A DNA stretch of 64,000 nt from the human T2T-CHM13v2.0 reference genome, Homo sapiens. Position numbers and translations under genes: made by a program. The stretch's first letter is position 1. Each line of letters begins with the position of its first letter. This document shows positions 33,265 through 43,582 of the stretch, in pieces. The stretch lies in assembly GCF_009914755.1 (NCBI RefSeq), contig NC_060947.1; one strand, given 5' to 3'. Under the pieces are notes generated by a model. It did no database searches and had not been told where the DNA came from. It saw nothing but the letters and a program-made list of their open reading frames with translations.

Positions 33265-34998
33265 AAAATAACACTTCTTTTCTTTGCTTCCCAGAGACTT
33301 TGGGAGTTGTTCTATTATATTTTGCTCAGACCTTATTGTTGTTACTTCAGGAAGATTGATTTGTTAGAAACGTATTCCTCCATAAATGTATTAGACCATT
33401 CTTGCACTGCTATGAAGAAATACTTGAGACTGAGTAATTTACAAAGAAAAGAGGTTTAATTGGCTCACAGTTCCACAGGGTGTACAGGAAGCATGGCTGA
33501 GGAGGCCTCAGGAAATTTACAATCACGGCAGAAGGTGAAGGGAAAGCAAGTACATTTTATACAGTCAGAGCAGGAGGAAGAGAGATGGGAGGAGGTGCTA
33601 CACACTTTTAAACAACTAGATGTCGTGAGTACTCACTCACTATCATGAGAGCAACATCAAGGGGGAAATGTGCCCCCATGATCCAATCACCTCCCACCAG
33701 GCTTCACCTCCAACATTGAGGATGATAATTTGACAGGAGATTTGGGTGGGGACAGAAATCCAAACCATATTATTCCACCCCAGCCCCTCCCAAATCTCAT
33801 GTCCTTCTCACAGTACAAAATACAATCATGCCTTCACAACAGTCCCTCAAAGTCTTAACTCATTCCAGCATTAACTCAAAAGTCTAAAGTCTCATCTGAG
33901 ACAAGGCTAATCCCTTCCACTTATGAGCCTGCAAAATTAAAAACAAGTTCATTACTTCCAAGATACAATGGAGGTATAGGCATTGGATAAATACACCCAC
34001 CCCAAATGGGAGACATTGGCCAACAGAAAGGAGGTACAGGCCCCATGCAAGTTCAAAACCCAGCAGGGCAGCCATTTAGTTTTAAAGCTCCCAAAATAAT
34101 CTCCTTTGACTCCATATCTCACATCTAGGGCATACTGGTGCAAGGGGTGGGCTCCCAAGGCCTTGAACAGCTCTGCTTCTCTGGCATTATAGGATACAGC
34201 CCCTGTGGCTGCTTTCATAGGCAGCTTTTCCAGGTGCACAGTGCAAGTTGTCAGTAGATCTACCATTCTGGGGTCTGAAGGATGGTGGCCCTCTTCTCAC
34301 AGCTTCACTACGTAGTGCTCCAATGGGGACTCTGTGTGGGGACTCCAACCTTACATTTCCCTTGACACTGCCCTAGTAGAGGTTCTTCATGAGGGACCCA
34401 CCCCTGTAGCAGGCTTTTGCCTGGACATCCAGGGATTTCCAAACATCTTCTGAAATCTAGGTGGGGGCTTCCAAGCCTCAACTTTTACACTGTGTGTGCT
34501 TGAAGGCTTAACACCACATGGAAGCCACCAAGGCTTATGGTTTGCACGCTCTGAAGAATCAGCCTGAACTGTACCTTGGCCCTTTTTAGCCACAACTTGA
34601 GCTGGAACAGGTGGGATGCAGGGCACTGTGTCTCAAGGCTGCACAGAGCAGCAGAGCCCTGGGCCTGGCCAAGGAAAACTTTCTTCCTTCACACGCTTCC
34701 AGGCCTGTGATTGGAGGGGCTGCTGTGCAGAGGTCTCTGAAATGCCTCTGAGGCTTTTTTCCTATTGTCTTGCACTGACTCCTGTCAATTAGCAATTGAC
34801 TCCTCTTAGGCAAATTTTTGCAGTCAGATTGAATTCATCCACTGAAAATGGGTCTTTCTTTTCTACCACATGGCTGAGCTGCAAATTTTCCAAACTTTTA
34901 TGTTTTGCTTCCCTTTGCTCACATATGTGAGAATATGCTGTTAGAAGCAACCAGGCCACATCTTGAATGCTTTGCTGCTTAGAAATTTCTTCCACCAG

Positions 34999-35152
34999 CT
35001 CTCTTGCTCTTCTGCCTAGTGCTATATAAGGATAGAGCTTTTCTCTCCTTCAGAGGATATAGCAAGATGCAATCTTAGAAACAGAAAATGCCCCTCACCA
35101 CATAACTGAGCCTACCAGCACCTTGATTTTGGATCTCCCAGCCTCCAAAACG
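34999..35152 (+). mobile_element. MSTD-like LTR fragment at the 5' end of the inserted unit
   Basis: ctcttgctcttctgcc...cagcaccttgattttggatctcccagcctccaaaac matches the MST LTR 3' half; orientation opposite to the host MSTA. Confidence 0.75.
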
Positions 35153-35168
35153 ATTCAGGGGAGAGGAG

Positions 35169-35179
35169 CCAAGATGGCC
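35169..35179 (-). promoter_or_regulatory. YY1 site of the L1 internal promoter
   Basis: ccaagatggcc at the canonical position of the L1PA 5'UTR. Confidence 0.8.
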
Positions 35180-35347
35180 GAATAGGAACAGCTCTGGACT
35201 ACAGCTCCCAGCATGAGCGATGCAGAAGAGGGGTGATTTCTGCATTTCCAACTGAGGTATCGGGTTCACCTCACTGGGAAGTGCAAGACAGTAGGCGCAG
35301 GACAGTGGGTGCAGCACACCAGGCATGAGCCAAAGCAGGGTGAGGCA

Positions 35348-35611
35348 TCACCTCACCCAGAAAGCACAAGGGGTCAGGGAATTCCCTTTCCTAGTCAAAG
35401 AAAGGGTTGACAGATGGCACCTGGAAAATTGGGTCACTCCCACCCTAATACTGTGCTTTTCCAACGGGCTTAAAAAATGGTGCACCAGGAGATCATATCC
35501 CACACCTGGCTCGGAGGGTCCTACACCCACGGAGTCTCGCTCGTTGCTGGCACAGGAGTCCGAGATCAAACTGCAAGGCAGCAGCGAGGCTAGGGGAGGG
35601 GTGCCTGCCAT
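35348..35611 (-). CDS. L1 antisense ORF0-like open frame (87 aa)
   Basis: MAGTPPLASLLPCSLISDSCASNERDSVGVGPSEPGVGY...IRVGVTQFSR matches primate L1 ORF0p; expression not shown. Confidence 0.55.
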   Translation of the reverse strand: MAGTPPLASLLPCSLISDSCASNERDSVGVGPSEPGVGYDLLVHHFLSPLEKHSIRVGVTQFSRCHLSTLSLTRKGNSLTPCAFWVR

Positions 35612-40200: not shown

Positions 40201-41102
40201 CCTAGAAGAAAACCTAGGCAATACCATTCAGGACATAGGCATGGGAAAGGACTTCATGTCTAAAACACCAAAAGCAATGGCAACAAAAGCCAAAATTGAC
40301 AAATGGGATCTAATTAAACTAAAGAGCTTCTGCACAGCAAAAGAAAATACCATCAGAGTGAACAGGCAACCTACAGAATGGGAGAAAATTTTTACAATCT
40401 ATTCATCTGACAAAGGGCTAATATCCAGAATCTACAATGAACTCAAACAAATTTACAAGAAAAAAACAAGCAACCCCACCAAAAAGTGGGCAAAGGATAT
40501 GAACAGACACTTCTCAAAAGAAGACATTTATGCAGCCAAAAAAACACATGAAAAAATGCTCATCATCACTGGACATCAGAGAAATGCAAATCAAAACCAC
40601 AATGAGATACCATCTCATGCCAGTCAGAATGGCGATCATTAAAAAGTCAGGAAACAACAGGTGCTGGAGAGGATGTGGAGAAATAGGAACACTTTTACAC
40701 TGTTGGTGGGACTGTAAACTAGTTCAACCATTCTGGAAGTCAGTGTGGCAATTCCTCAGGGATCTAGAACTGGAAATACCATTTGACCCCACCATCCCAT
40801 TACTGGGTATATACTCAAAGGATTATAAATCATGCTGCTATAAAGACACATGCACATGTATGTTTATTGCGGCACTATTCACAATGGCAAAGACTTGGAA
40901 CCATCCTAAATGTCCAACAACGATAGACTAGATTAAGAAAATGTGGCACATATACACCATGGAATACTATGTAGCCATAAAAAATTATGAGTTCATGTCC
41001 TTTTTAGGGACATGGATGAAACTGGAAACCATCATTCTCAGCAAACTATTGCAAGGACAAAAAACCAAACACCGCATGTTGTCACTCATAGGTGTGAATT
41101 GA
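37274..41102 (+). pseudogene. L1 ORF2p (EN-RT-C), disrupted
   Basis: [45 protein letters not shown]; several stops and frameshifts. Confidence 0.95.
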
Positions 41103-41343
41103 ACAATGAGAACACATGGACACAGGAAGGGGAACATCACACACCAGGGACTGTTGTGGGGTGGGGGGAGGGGGGAGGGATAGCATTAGGAGATATACCT
41201 AATGCTAAATGACGAGTTAATGGGTGCAGCACACCAACATGGCACATGTATACATATGTAACAAACCTGCACGTTGTGCACATGTACCCTAAAACTTAAA
41301 GTATTATAATAATAAAATAACAAATATATAAAATGAAAAAAAG

Positions 41344-41870
41344 ATTCAGGGGGTACAAGTTCAGGGGGTATATTATGTAATGCTGGGTTTTGGGCTTCTA
41401 GTGAATCCATCATGCAAATATTGAACATAGTACCCACTACATAGTTTTTCAACCCTCATAACCCTTCCAACCTTTTTTTTTTTTTTTTTTTTTGGAATTC
41501 CCTGGGTCTTTTGTTTCCATCTTTCTGTTCATGTGTACCCATTGATTAGCTACCACTTATGAGTGAGAACATGTGGTATTTGATTTCTGTTTCTGAGTTA
41601 TTTCACTTAGGATAATGTTCTCCAGCTGCATCCTTGTTGGTGTGAAGAACAGGATTTCATTTTTTATGGCTCTGTGGTATTCCTAGATGTATATGTCCTA
41701 AATTTTCTTTATCTAATCCACCAGTGATGGACACTTGGGTTGACTCCATGACTTGGTATTGTGAATAGTGCCACGATAAACTTACCAGTGCAAGTGTCTT
41801 TTTGATAAAACAATTTATTTTTCTTTGGATATATACTCAGTAGTGGGATTTTTAGTTCTTTGAGAAATCT
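41344..41870 (-). mobile_element. Older L1PA (L1PA15/16-like) 3' fragment lacking its poly(T) end
   Basis: attcagggggtac...ccacttatgagtgagaacatgtggtatttg...; compare the intact end at 43585-43620. Confidence 0.8.
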
Positions 41871-41907
41871 GAGTACTAATACAGAGGAAATTAAAGTTTC
41901 ACCTAAA

Positions 41908-42208
41908 TTTTTATTTTCGTCTTTTATTTTTTATTTGAGACAGGATCTCTGTCATCCAGACTGGAGTGCAGTAGCATAACCACTTACTACACTCTAGACC
42001 TCCTGGGCTCAAGCAGTCCTCCTACAAGAGCCTTCTGAGTAGCTGAGACTGAAGGCTTGCATCACCACACCAGCTAATTTTTAATTTTTTGTAGAGACGG
42101 GGCCTCCTTATGCTGCCCAGGCTTGTCTGGAGCTCCTGGGCTCAAACAGTTCTCTCATGTTGACCTTCCAAAGTGCTGGAATTACAGGCATGAGCCACTG
42201 TGCCAACT
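41908..42208 (-). mobile_element. AluJ
   Basis: Antisense dimer; degenerate TSD accta(a)attttt. Confidence 0.9.
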
Positions 42209-43582
42209 CGTCGACCTAATTTTTTAAAGCACAGGAATATAATGCTACTTTCATCATTTTCATTCAGTTAGAACAATTATGGTAAACAAGGTCTGAAACT
42301 TAGACATTTCTCAAAAACCTAAACCATTTAAAATGACATTTACATTTCATACTTTTTTCTTTTTCCTAATAGTTTCCTTTCCTTTGTAATATTATAGCTG
42401 AAAAGAATTTAATTGAATAAAATCAGATTCTTCTATAGTCATAAAAGGCATAGTTATGATTTTCCGATTTAAAATTAACAATTTACTTTTGGCAGCAATT
42501 AAATATTGAAGCTTTATTATGTACCAACTAAAAAAAAAAAAAAGAAATTTCTTCCACCAGAAACTCTAAATCTTCACTCTCAAATTCAAAGTTCCACATA
42601 TCCCTAGAGCAGGAACACAATCCAACTAGGCTCTTTCCCAAAGCATAGCAAGAGTGACTGTTACTTCATTTCCCATAAGCTCCCATTTCCATCTGAGATC
42701 TCTTCAGCCTGGACTTAACTGTCAATATCACTGTCAGAATTTTTGTCACAATGATTCAACAAGTCTCTAGAAAGTTCTAAACTTTCTCTCACCTTCATGT
42801 CTTTTTCTGAGCCCTCCAAACTGTTCCAACCTCTGCCCATTACCCAGTTCCAAAGCTGCTTCCACATTTTCAGGTATCTTTATAGCAATGTCCCACTCCT
42901 TGATACCAATTTTCTGTATTAGTTTATTCTTGTACTTCTATAAAGAAATACCTGAGACTGGGTAATTTATAAAGAAAGGAGGTTTAATTGGATCACAGTT
43001 CCACAGGCTGTATGGGAAGTATGGCTGGGGAGGCCTCAGGAAATTTAAAATTATGGTGGAAGGCAAAGGGAAAGCAGGCGCATCTCACATGGCTGGAGCA
43101 GGAGGAAGGAGAGAGGAGGTGCTACACCCTTTTAAACAACTAGTTCCCATGAGTCCTCAATCATTATTATGAGAGCAGCACCGAGAAGGAAATCTGCTCC
43201 TATGATCCAATCACCTCCCACTAGGCCTATCCTCCAACACTGGGGATGATATTTGACATGAGATTTGGTTGGAGACACAGACACAAAACATATCAATACG
43301 GAAAGCAGTACTGAATAATTAGAAATGAATTTTTATAAATGAAGGCTACACTTAAGGTCATGTATTTATTACATGGCACTGCCCTCAAAAACCATTCTTT
43401 TTTCCATGACACAATATTTATTTTTTTCTTTTTTGGGTTCATGATTTTTTCTTATATTATTTTTAGTTTTATTTTATTTTTGATTGACACATAATAATAC
43501 TACCTGCTAATTACACTGATTTGATAATTACACAATGTATACACATACTGAAGCATCAAATTTTACCCCATATTCTTTCTTT

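What the first reader, a model, noticed from the sequence alone, without database searches (positions are those of the whole stretch)
34981..42560. 7.5-kb retrotransposed unit: LTR fragment + full-length L1PA + 1.2-kb 3' cargo inside one 18-bp TSD
Seen: the MSTA interior stops at agaaatttcttccaccag (34981-34998) and resumes after an identical 18-mer (42543-42560). The second copy follows a poly(A) run, with ATTAAA about 30 nt upstream. The left site tt|agaaa fits an L1 endonuclease target. Between the TSDs lie an MSTD-like piece, a full L1PA with its own inner repeat (gattcagggg), an old antisense L1 fragment, an AluJ and about 320 bp of non-repeat-looking DNA. Known: TSD plus poly(A) plus EN site indicates TPRT. 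Inference: either an L1 that moved with both 5' and 3' transductions, carrying its parent's TSD, or a processed copy of an LTR-driven lncRNA later hit by L1. A repeat annotator would list these as unrelated pieces.
Basis: partly seen in the sequence, partly recalled or inferred. Interest (0 to 1): 0.85.

Follow-up and report, generated by a model that had tools for sequence, protein, structure and literature searches.

The report
L1 carried within spliced LTR transcript
A 7.5-kb insertion on the human X chromosome is a reverse-transcribed copy of a spliced, LTR-started RNA from chromosome 13 with a complete L1 element sitting at its exon junction, and it most likely moved as one piece, which bears on how L1 elements pick up host exons.

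Summary
The 18-mer occurs only twice in the window (34981-34998, 42543-42560). It brackets one poly(A)-ended unit inside an LTR-element interior that is continuous in related copies.

I found the source on contig C13 of the same genome. It has an LTR-derived first exon starting 26 nt after a TATAAG and ending at a GT donor. An 11.6-kb intron follows, then a 1,178-nt second exon behind a poly-T/AAG acceptor, ending 27 nt after ATTAAA. So the cargo is a spliced two-exon RNA, not raw flanking DNA.

The full-length, decayed L1 lies 9 nt into exon 2 and has its own direct repeat. C13 has no L1 there today.

Three results favour one chimeric RNA from a lost C13 allele (about 0.72) over a retrocopy hit later by L1 (about 0.25):
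- The L1 is not younger than the cargo: 2.0-2.6% private change against about 1.6%.
- The C13 site reads TT|AAGA with a clean duplication. The retrocopy site would read CC|AAAA with a mismatch.
- The poly-T/AAG is both a splice acceptor and an L1 target.

Primate orthologues would decide; none were available. This is a new, informative member of the exon-L1 chimera class (Law and Burns 2026).

The parts
34640..34980 (.).
   Evidence: Matches thousands of genomic copies at 71-79%. It is continuous with the right flank in 10 of 11 related copies.
34981..34998 (.). Outer target-site duplication, left copy (18 nt), preceded by TT, so the site reads TT|AGAA.
34999..35152 (+). Copy of exon 1 of the C13 gene: 154 nt of a MaLR-type LTR, running from its transcription start to its internal splice donor.
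   Evidence: 98% identity to C13:69617275-69617426 against 76% or less elsewhere. There are 4 differences in 154 nt. On C13 a TATAAG starts 26 nt upstream and GTGAGA follows the last base. The TATA-like box is shared by related LTR copies.
35152..35161 (+). Inner direct repeat, 5' copy (GATTCAGGGG). Bases 35153-35161 are the first 9 nt of C13 exon 2, directly after the splice junction.
   Evidence: (family D20).
35162..41342 (+). Full-length L1PA-type element with 5'UTR, broken ORF1 and ORF2, 3'UTR, and an impure A-rich tail at 41319-41342. The first G's may belong to the repeat.
   Evidence: Its 5' end aligns with the 5' ends of full-length relatives. Pfam hits: Tnp_22_dsRBD 6e-44, Transposase_22, Exo_endo_phos, RVT_1. 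The longest ATG ORF is 324 aa. The 3' end is compared with 20 relatives.
41343..41352 (+). Inner direct repeat, 3' copy. With the two preceding A's it equals the C13 site AAGATTCAGG.
41343..42530 (+). Copy of the rest of C13 exon 2 (C13:69629044-69630221).
   Evidence: 54 substitutions in 1,175 aligned nt and 6 gap events. Homology ends where the window has poly(A) and C13 runs on.
41353..41860 (-). Old L1 3'-end fragment in antisense, part of exon 2. Its former poly(A) tail is the poly-T tract in front of the acceptor on C13.
   Evidence: 71% identity to the minus strand of the young L1, positions 5632-5988. Genome hits at 74-78% on both strands.
41915..42205 (-). Alu-like SINE in antisense, part of exon 2 (approximate ends).
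   Evidence: 6 other copies of at least 220 nt in the window. It is also present in the C13 exon.
42206..42530 (+). Non-repeat end of exon 2, with the ATTAAA signal at 42498-42503.
   Evidence: Only 2 genomic matches, the window itself and C13 at 97%. On C13 a TGTGTG-rich stretch follows the cleavage point.
42531..42542 (+). Untemplated poly(A) tail of the whole unit. It has 12 A's; the neighbouring A's are ambiguous.
42543..42560 (.). Outer target-site duplication, right copy.
42561..42900 (.). Right flank: continuation of the host LTR-retrotransposon interior.

Best explanation
The 7.5-kb unit is one L1-mediated (target-primed reverse transcription) insertion of a single chimeric RNA made on chromosome 13.

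Proposed sequence of events:
1. A full-length L1 inserted in sense orientation at the site TT|AAGATTCAGG. That site lies at the junction between a long poly-T tract (the tail of an old antisense L1) and AAG.
2. The same poly-T plus AG is a 3' splice site. Transcription began at the promoter of a MaLR-type LTR 11.6 kb upstream.
3. The LTR's internal GT donor was spliced to that acceptor, 9 nt before the L1.
4. The RNA ran through the L1 and past its weak poly(A) signal. It ended 1.19 kb further on, at an ATTAAA site.
5. The RNA therefore carried exon 1, the remnant of the L1's 5' duplication, the L1 with its tail, the 3' duplication and the downstream flank.
6. It was copied full length into TT|AGAAAT on the X chromosome, making the 18-nt duplication.
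7. The L1-bearing chromosome 13 allele was never fixed and is absent from this genome.

Shown: the source gene, the splice, the transcription start, the poly(A) site, the outer and inner duplications, and the empty source site.
Inferred: that the L1 sat at the source when the RNA was made.
For: 1. Source and splicing. Exon 1 matches C13:69617275-69617428 and exon 2 matches C13:69629044-69630221 on the same strand. The bordering motifs are TATAAG (26 nt upstream), GTGAGA, poly-T plus AAG, and ATTAAA. C13 continues past the cleavage point without a poly(A).

2. Dating. L1 changes shared by under 10% of relatives, non-CpG:
- 61 of 2,336 in the 5' 2.5 kb (28 relatives);
- 19 of 978 in mid ORF2 (12 relatives);
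- 23 of 1,148 in the 3' 1.17 kb (20 relatives).
The total is 103 of 4,462, or 2.3%. It is 2.0% in the two AT-rich parts, whose GC content is like the cargo's.
For the cargo, differences from C13 were polarised with outgroup repeats over 951 nt: 12 X-derived, 17 C13-derived and 8 unresolved. That gives an X-branch of about 1.6%. Half the pairwise distance is 2.2% (58 of 1,329).
So the L1 is not measurably younger than the DNA it would have had to insert into. By my own binomial arithmetic on these counts, an L1 less than about 0.6-0.7 of the cargo's age fits poorly.

3. Endonuclease site. On C13 the site is TT|AAGA, one mismatch from TT|AAAA, and the duplication needs no mismatch. In a retrocopy the site would be either CC|AAAA with a 15-nt duplication carrying one difference (D20), or AC|GATT. 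The L1-less cargo offers 40 sites with at most 1 mismatch and 239 with at most 2, out of 2,670. In the cleavage-site columns of Law and Burns's tables the tokens AAAA, AAGA, AGAA and GATT occur 106, 31, 25 and 0 times.

4. Position. The L1 starts 9 nt after the splice junction. The poly-T/AAG motif explains this, because it is both an acceptor and an L1 target. Under later insertion it would be chance, about 20 of 1,341 positions.

5. Precedent. Law and Burns list 17 exon-to-L1 5' chimeras, mostly near full length. In one case exons were spliced in cis to a cryptic acceptor 15 bp before an intronic L1.
Against: 1. The C13 site carries no L1 in this genome. The L1-bearing allele is therefore postulated, not seen.
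2. No sibling insertion carries the same exon 1 or exon 2. The only high-identity matches are the window and C13.
3. The dating cannot separate joint arrival from an L1 that landed within roughly the first third of the unit's lifetime. The counts are small (12 against 17 polarised sites).
4. The L1's private changes may include up to a few tenths of a percent inherited from its progenitor.
5. Relatives were taken from the best-scoring 40 of 7,000-9,000 candidates per search, which biases them towards little-decayed copies.
6. The weights I give to endonuclease site classes are rough. They rest on token counts and on recalled literature.
7. No primate orthologues could be examined.
Confidence: 0.72

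Rival explanations
1. Two separate events on the X chromosome. First, the spliced two-exon LTR-driven RNA from chromosome 13 (about 1.34 kb) was retrocopied in trans by L1 proteins into the host LTR-element interior, making the 18-nt duplication. Soon after, an unrelated full-length L1 inserted into that retrocopy and happened to land across the exon-exon junction.
For: The source locus has no L1, so no lost allele needs to be postulated. Every feature of a processed retrocopy is present: the intron is removed, the 5' end lies at a plausible transcription start, and there is a poly(A) tail, a duplication and an endonuclease-like site. The L1 has its own direct repeat, as an independent insertion would. 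The dating allows an L1 that arrived early in the retrocopy's life.
Against: The L1's own branch (2.0-2.6%) is not shorter than the cargo's X-branch (about 1.6%), which restricts this model to a narrow early time window.

The site used would be CC|AAAA, with one difference between the duplication copies, or AC|GATT. Yet the retrocopy offered 40 sites closer to the consensus, and GATT occurs 0 times in the published cleavage-site columns.

Landing within 10 nt of the only exon junction has no cause under this model. That is about 20 of 1,341 positions.
Confidence: 0.25
2. Template switching during one reverse transcription. The enzyme began on the chromosome 13 RNA, jumped to the tail of an L1 RNA, copied it entirely, and jumped back to the first RNA about 10 nt downstream of where it left. 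No L1 was ever inserted in exon 2 DNA.
For: It would make the L1 and the cargo the same age, as observed. The run of G's at the L1 5' end could serve as microhomology for the return jump. Multi-part chimeras by template switching are discussed in the literature (passage on Figure 7).
Against: It needs two switches, with the return within 10 nt of the departure. A 10-nt direct repeat that exactly abuts a complete L1 and its tail is the ordinary mark of a DNA-level insertion. The position next to the splice junction would again be chance. Law and Burns do not favour template switching where a splice junction is present.
Confidence: 0.02
3. Trans-splicing of the LTR exon onto a separate L1 transcript, as proposed for many exon-L1 chimeras.
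For: The exon ends exactly at its donor and the L1 is complete. This is the pattern in 6 of the 17 published chimeras.
Against: The L1 is preceded by 9 nt and followed by 1.19 kb of the same gene's second exon, collinear with exon 1 on C13. The L1 therefore lay within that gene's sequence, and ordinary cis-splicing suffices.
Confidence: 0.01

Closest known systems
Exon-to-L1 5' chimeric insertions, including the RAP1GDS1/L1PA2 promoter co-option case (Law and Burns, bioRxiv 10.1101/2025.02.02.635956; Cell Genomics 2026, PMC13174262). I read preprint sections 24 and 25, passages of the published text, and part 1 of 3 of supplementary file 4 (their Table S5), and ran term searches over the 4 held spreadsheets.
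   Same: First exon(s) of a host transcript in sense, ending at a splice donor and joined to a near full-length L1. One duplication surrounds the whole unit. The source gene usually lacks the L1 today. In the RAP1GDS1 case a cryptic acceptor lies 15 bp before the L1; here it lies 9 nt before.
   Different: Here the unit also carries 1.19 kb downstream of the L1, reaching the host gene's own poly(A) site, and both copies of the L1's parental duplication. This pins the L1's former place in the source gene to the base. The promoter is an LTR, not a gene promoter.

The locus does not appear in their tables. No chrX coordinate beginning 677 to 680 occurs. My hg38 position, about chrX:67.94 Mb, rests on a recalled OPHN1 coordinate. 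Their search looked for the duplication directly after the L1 tail, so it would probably miss this unit.
L1 3' transduction: read-through of the L1 poly(A) signal into flanking DNA. The classic reports by Moran, Goodier and Pickeral are recalled. The rate figures of about 10% come from passages of PMC4862182.
   Same: L1 with its tail, then unique DNA from another locus, then a second poly(A) and the duplication. The transduced stretch begins with the parent's 3' duplication copy.
   Different: It is combined with a spliced 5' extension from the same source gene. PMC4862182 found no L1 5' transduction driven by an upstream promoter and calls such events extremely rare (passages).
Processed retrocopy of a non-coding RNA with a later nested L1 (an ordinary nested-repeat arrangement).
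   Same: Intron loss, poly(A) tail, duplication, and a nested element with its own duplication.
   Different: The nested L1 is not younger than its host. It lies at the exon junction, at a poor target site for that context.
SVA 5' transductions with spliced host exons
   Same: An upstream host promoter and spliced exon are carried at the 5' end of a retrotransposon RNA.
   Different: SVA is non-autonomous. Here the passenger is an autonomous L1 that could have supplied its own proteins in cis.

Membership tests
LINE-1 (L1PA-type) element | ORF1 and ORF2 (endonuclease, reverse transcriptase) homology in the right order on one strand. | tested here: met
   Pfam: Tnp_22_dsRBD 6.1e-44, Transposase_22 3.9e-9, Exo_endo_phos 4e-8. 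The RVT_1 fragments (1e-4) are below the curated cut-off. 4 of 5 ORF pieces gave hits. The frames are broken.
LINE-1 (L1PA-type) element | Full length: the 5' end coincides with the family's 5' end, and the 3' end carries an A-rich tail. | tested here: met
   The 5' end aligns with those of full-length relatives; the anchor was found in 28 of 29 loci. The 3' end matches 20 of 20 relatives up to the tail. Genome relatives are 92-96% identical. The exact subfamily was not determined, because no consensus library was available.
Target-primed reverse transcription insertion (outer unit) | A perfect target-site duplication that occurs once in the uninterrupted target. | tested here: met
   18 of 18 identical. 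It occurs once in 10 of 11 related host copies; 1 copy is uninformative.
Target-primed reverse transcription insertion (outer unit) | An untemplated poly(A) at the 3' end and a TT|AAAA-like nick site. | tested here: met
   The A run is absent from C13. The site is TT|AGAA. The AGAA token occurs 25 times in the published cleavage-site columns.
Processed (spliced) RNA copy | A source locus with an intron bounded by GT and AG that is missing from the copy. | tested here: met
   The exons lie 11,615 nt apart on C13. GTGAGA follows exon 1, and poly-T plus AAG precedes exon 2.
LTR-promoted transcript | The 5' end of the copy lies at the LTR's transcription start. | tested here: inconclusive
   TATAAG starts 26 nt upstream of the copy's first base on C13. 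The box is shared by several related LTR copies. No transcript or CAGE data were available.
L1 3' transduction | Unique DNA after the L1 tail that maps to another locus, begins at the parental duplication and ends in a second poly(A). | tested here: met
   The structure is met. Under the rival model the same structure arises without transduction.
L1 3' transduction | An L1 present at the source locus, upstream of the transduced stretch. | tested here: not met
   The C13 site is uninterrupted in this genome. Other genomes and haplotypes could not be searched.
Exon-L1 5' chimera by cis-splicing | The host exon ends at its splice donor, and an acceptor lies just upstream of the L1 in the source. 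| tested here: met
   The donor is shown. The acceptor AAG is followed by the same 9 nt that precede the L1 in the window.
Exon-L1 5' chimera by cis-splicing | The L1 and the adjoining host sequence arrived at the same time. | tested here: inconclusive
   The branch lengths are compatible: 2.0-2.6% against about 1.6-2.2%. Presence or absence across species could not be tested.

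The most novel reading that the evidence does not exclude
L1 target sites are, by their nature, latent 3' splice sites: a T tract followed by A-rich sequence that often contains AG. A sense L1 that lands behind such a tract, in an intron or a terminal exon, is then automatically placed a few bases downstream of an acceptor.

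This locus would be the first case where the mechanism can be read base by base, because the 3' flank pins the lost source site. If so, many exon-L1 chimeras now ascribed to trans-splicing arose by cis-splicing from source alleles that were never fixed. Examples are the 15 of 17 whose genes lack an L1. The short 'untemplated' bases between exon and L1 in those chimeras would be remnants of the parent's 5' duplication. Lengths of 2, 5 and 11 nt occur in the rows I read.
Probability: 0.3. Interest if true: 0.68.

Novelty: new member of a known kind. Interest (0 to 1): 0.5.

Why it matters
Exon-L1 chimeras are a route by which L1 can acquire new promoters and 5' ends. The current debate is whether they arise by trans-splicing or by cis-splicing from L1 alleles that have since been lost (passages).

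This unit carries the L1 together with both sides of its former home. If it moved as one RNA, three things follow:
- An empty source gene is no argument for trans-splicing.
- The acceptor can be supplied by the L1 target site itself.
- An LTR promoter 11.6 kb away can mobilise an L1.

It is also a practical warning. Repeat annotation splits the unit into five or more unrelated pieces. A search for chimeras that looks for the duplication right after the L1 tail will miss units with a 3' flank.

If the rival reading is right, the locus is an ordinary nested insertion. Its only interest is then as a dated retrocopy of an LTR-driven non-coding RNA.

Tried and rejected
1. Chance repeat or internal repeat of the host element as the origin of the 18-mer. 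Rejected.
2. The 5' LTR piece as raw upstream flank of the L1, that is, unspliced 5' transduction. Rejected: on C13 the LTR piece lies 11.6 kb from the rest, and poly-T precedes the shared sequence.
3. Sibling copies. None found. The 319-nt unique query has 2 matches in all. For exon 1 and exon 2 the only high-identity matches are the window and C13, with the next best at 76-78%. Only 40 candidates per search are scored.
4. Full-length fetch of 20 L1 relatives. I used 1.2-kb and 1.0-kb pieces instead. The loci were not cut out for the same reason. The L1 stretches 37663-38399 and 39401-40144 were therefore not dated.
5. One of the 29 5' loci (L037) was dropped from the dating because its match was split in two. 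One (L049) lacked the 5' anchor.
7. Paper searches. One was rejected for an apostrophe. One search for 5' plus 3' transduction terms found 0 papers, probably because of the prime sign. So I make no claim that an L1 carrying both a spliced 5' exon and a 3' flank is absent from print. I checked only the Law and Burns tables and passages of PMC4862182.
8. A phrase search for whole cleavage motifs such as 'TT AAGA' in the supplement found nothing, because the slash is not matched. Single 4-mer tokens were counted instead. A few of those tokens may come from other columns.
9. Subfamily naming and absolute dating. No consensus library was available. The age range of 3.1-20.4 Myr for L1Hs to L1PA5 is quoted from passages of PMC5237266. 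My guess of L1PA4-5 and an age of roughly 13-22 Myr rests on recalled rates.
10. No primate genomes are held, so presence or absence across species could not be tested.

Full report
**Observation.** The 18-mer AGAAATTTCTTCCACCAG lies at 34981-34998 and 42543-42560 and nowhere else in the window, even at 2 mismatches. The expected count is 0.02, and 0 of 100 shuffles reach two (also family D7). The right copy follows an A run (42530-43). ATTAAA lies at 42498-42503, and the left copy is preceded by TT.

To test whether the 18-mer is a real target-site duplication, I searched the genome with the left flank (40 of 3,348 candidates scored). I then aligned both flanks to the 11 related copies that were fetched.
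- In 7 copies the two alignments overlap by exactly 18 nt.
- In 3 more they do so after extrapolating 1-6 unaligned bases.
- One copy has a deletion there and is uninformative.
The host element is therefore continuous and holds the 18-mer once.

**What lies inside.**
- 34999-35152 is a piece of a MaLR-type LTR.
- 35162-41342 is a complete L1. Its 5' end lines up with those of full-length relatives. Its 3' end matches 20 of 20 relatives up to the tail. Pfam finds L1 ORF1, endonuclease and RT fragments. The frames are broken, with a longest ATG ORF of 324 aa.
- The L1 is bracketed by GATTCAGGGG at 35152-35161 and 41343-41352. With the preceding A's this is a 15-mer with one difference (D20).
- Downstream come an old L1 fragment in antisense (71% to the minus strand of the young L1), an Alu-like repeat and about 320 nt of unique DNA.

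**The source.** The window's own genome (24 contigs, 3.1 Gb) could be searched.
- The unique 319 nt match only themselves and C13:69629904-69630219, at 97%.
- The whole 3' cargo matches C13:69629045-69630221 at 94%, gaps included. All other hits cover only the old L1 part, at 78% or less.
- The LTR piece matches C13:69617275-69617426 at 98%, with the next best hit at 76%.
- Both matches are on the same strand, 11.6 kb apart.

On C13 the first piece is followed by GTGAGA, and its first base lies 26 nt after the T of a TATAAG. That box is shared by related LTR copies. The second piece is preceded by a long T-rich tract ending in AAG. After the last shared base, C13 runs on into a TGTGTG-rich stretch, while the window has poly(A).

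The cargo is therefore a copy of a spliced two-exon RNA. It starts at an LTR promoter, uses a donor inside the LTR, removes an 11,615-nt GT-AG intron and is polyadenylated 27 nt after ATTAAA. The copy is full length.

Differences from C13:
- 4 of 154 in exon 1;
- 54 of 1,175 in exon 2, made up of 33 transitions and 21 transversions, K2P 0.048, with 6 gap events.

**The open question.** C13 has no L1: the sequence runs poly-T, AAG, ATTCAGG without interruption. Two histories give the same structure.
- Model D: an L1 sat at that C13 site in an allele that was later lost, and the whole 7.5 kb moved as one chimeric RNA.
- Model C: the 1.34-kb RNA was retrocopied to the X chromosome, and an L1 later inserted into the retrocopy.

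**Test 1, relative age.** Under C the L1 must be younger than the cargo. I compared three L1 stretches with their best genomic relatives. For each I counted non-CpG positions where the X copy differs from at least 90% of the relatives.
- 5' 2.5 kb: 61 of 2,336 (28 relatives; one of 29 loci was dropped for a split match).
- Mid ORF2: 19 of 978 (12 relatives).
- 3' 1.17 kb: 23 of 1,148 (20 relatives).
- Star-tree terminal branches are 2.7%, 2.1% and 2.2%.
- FastTree terminal branches are 3.0% and 2.6% for the first and third sets.

For the cargo I polarised the X-versus-C13 differences with outgroup repeat copies over 951 nt. The result was 12 X-derived, 17 C13-derived and 8 unresolved. That gives an X-branch of about 1.6%. 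Half the pairwise distance is 2.2%.

The GC content of the cargo (0.37) is close to that of the two AT-rich L1 stretches (0.39). So the L1 is at least as diverged as the DNA around it. My own binomial arithmetic on 42 of 2,126 against about 15 of 951 gives a best age ratio near 1.2. It fits poorly below about 0.6-0.7.

Caveats:
- The counts are small.
- The relatives are the best-scoring 40 of 7,000-9,000 candidates.
- Some private L1 changes may be inherited from the progenitor.
This test favours D, or C with a very early L1.

**Test 2, the nick site.** On C13 a sense L1 with this duplication would have used TT|AAGA. That is one step from TT|AAAA, and both duplication copies agree with C13's AAGATTCAGG. 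In a retrocopy the site would be one of two:
- CC|AAAA, with a 15-nt duplication whose 3' copy lacks the C (D20);
- AC|GATT.

The L1-less cargo has 40 positions with at most one mismatch to TT|AAAA and 239 with at most two, out of 2,670 on both strands. In the cleavage-site columns of Law and Burns's tables the tokens AAAA, AAGA, AGAA, AAAG, AAAT and GATT occur 106, 31, 25, 24, 23 and 0 times.

**Test 3, position.** The L1 begins 9 nt after the only splice junction. Under C that is chance, about 20 of 1,341 positions. Under D there is a cause: the poly-T tract followed by AAG is at once a polypyrimidine tract with AG and an L1 endonuclease target. After insertion the upstream duplication copy keeps the T tract and stays a good acceptor. 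The downstream copy sits behind the L1's A tail.

**Weighing.** Taking rough parity as the prior (my estimate, from recalled numbers of retrocopies, full-length L1s and transductions), the three tests together favour D. I put D at 0.72 and C at 0.25. Template switching and trans-splicing share the remaining 0.03. I keep D well below certainty because the L1-bearing C13 allele has not been seen and no other primate genome could be consulted.

**Comparison with what is known.** Law and Burns describe 17 insertions in which the first exons of a gene or lncRNA, in sense, are fused to a mostly near-full-length L1. I read preprint sections 24 and 25, passages of the published text, and supplement searches plus one part.
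- Six of the exon blocks end exactly at splice donors.
- 15 source genes lack an L1. The authors discuss trans-splicing or lost alleles.
- In the RAP1GDS1 case an intronic L1PA2 is spliced in cis through a cryptic acceptor 15 bp upstream.

The present unit fits that class and that mechanism. It adds a 1.19-kb downstream flank and both parental duplication copies. It is not in their tables: no chrX coordinates begin 677-680. My hg38 position rests on a recalled gene coordinate.

PMC4862182 found no promoter-driven L1 5' transduction in primate data and calls such events extremely rare (passages). I did not establish that the combination of a spliced 5' exon with a 3' flank is unreported. My literature searches on that point were hampered by the prime sign.

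**Age.** A pairwise difference of 4.4-4.8% suggests a Miocene event, roughly 13-22 Myr by recalled rates. This is within the span of the hominoid L1PA subfamilies, 3.1-20.4 Myr for L1Hs to L1PA5 (PMC5237266, passages). The subfamily itself was not determined.

**Verdict.** The unit is a real single retrotransposed block whose cargo is a spliced LTR-driven RNA from chromosome 13. It most likely carried the L1 with it.

Noticed in passing
L004 1640-1670 (C13:69617414-69617444) against related LTR copies L005-L012: The splice donor used by the chromosome 13 LTR reads TG|GTGAGA. Most related LTR copies read CTGTGAGA at that place. The strong donor may therefore be a feature of this copy rather than of the family.
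   Followed up: partly
window 35151-35152 and L004 1653-1654: The last two bases of exon 1 are CG on the X copy and TG on C13. All 5 outgroup LTR copies with a base there have C. C13 therefore lost a CpG after the copy was made, and the X copy preserves the older state.
   Followed up: yes
window 41319-41342 against 42531-42542: The L1's own tail is A-rich but impure, with 6 non-A bases in 24. The outer tail is pure A. The inner tail was probably already heterogeneous when copied, as expected for a tail read from DNA rather than newly added. This is weak evidence and was not scored.
   Followed up: no
window 41473-41494 and L002 767-791: A run of about 22 T's inside the old antisense L1 fragment is present in both the X copy and the C13 exon, differing by one T. 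It was therefore transcribed and reverse-transcribed without collapse.
   Followed up: no
Supplementary Table 5 of PMC13174262 (part 1 of 3): Three of the first six listed exon-L1 chimeras have 2, 5 or 11 'untemplated' bases between the mapped exons and the L1. Here the corresponding 9 bases are templated by the source locus just after its acceptor.
   Followed up: no
The X-linked L1 has 1.3-1.6 times as many private changes as its best-scoring relatives in all three stretches. Choosing relatives by score favours little-decayed copies, so this says little about the age of its subfamily.
   Followed up: partly
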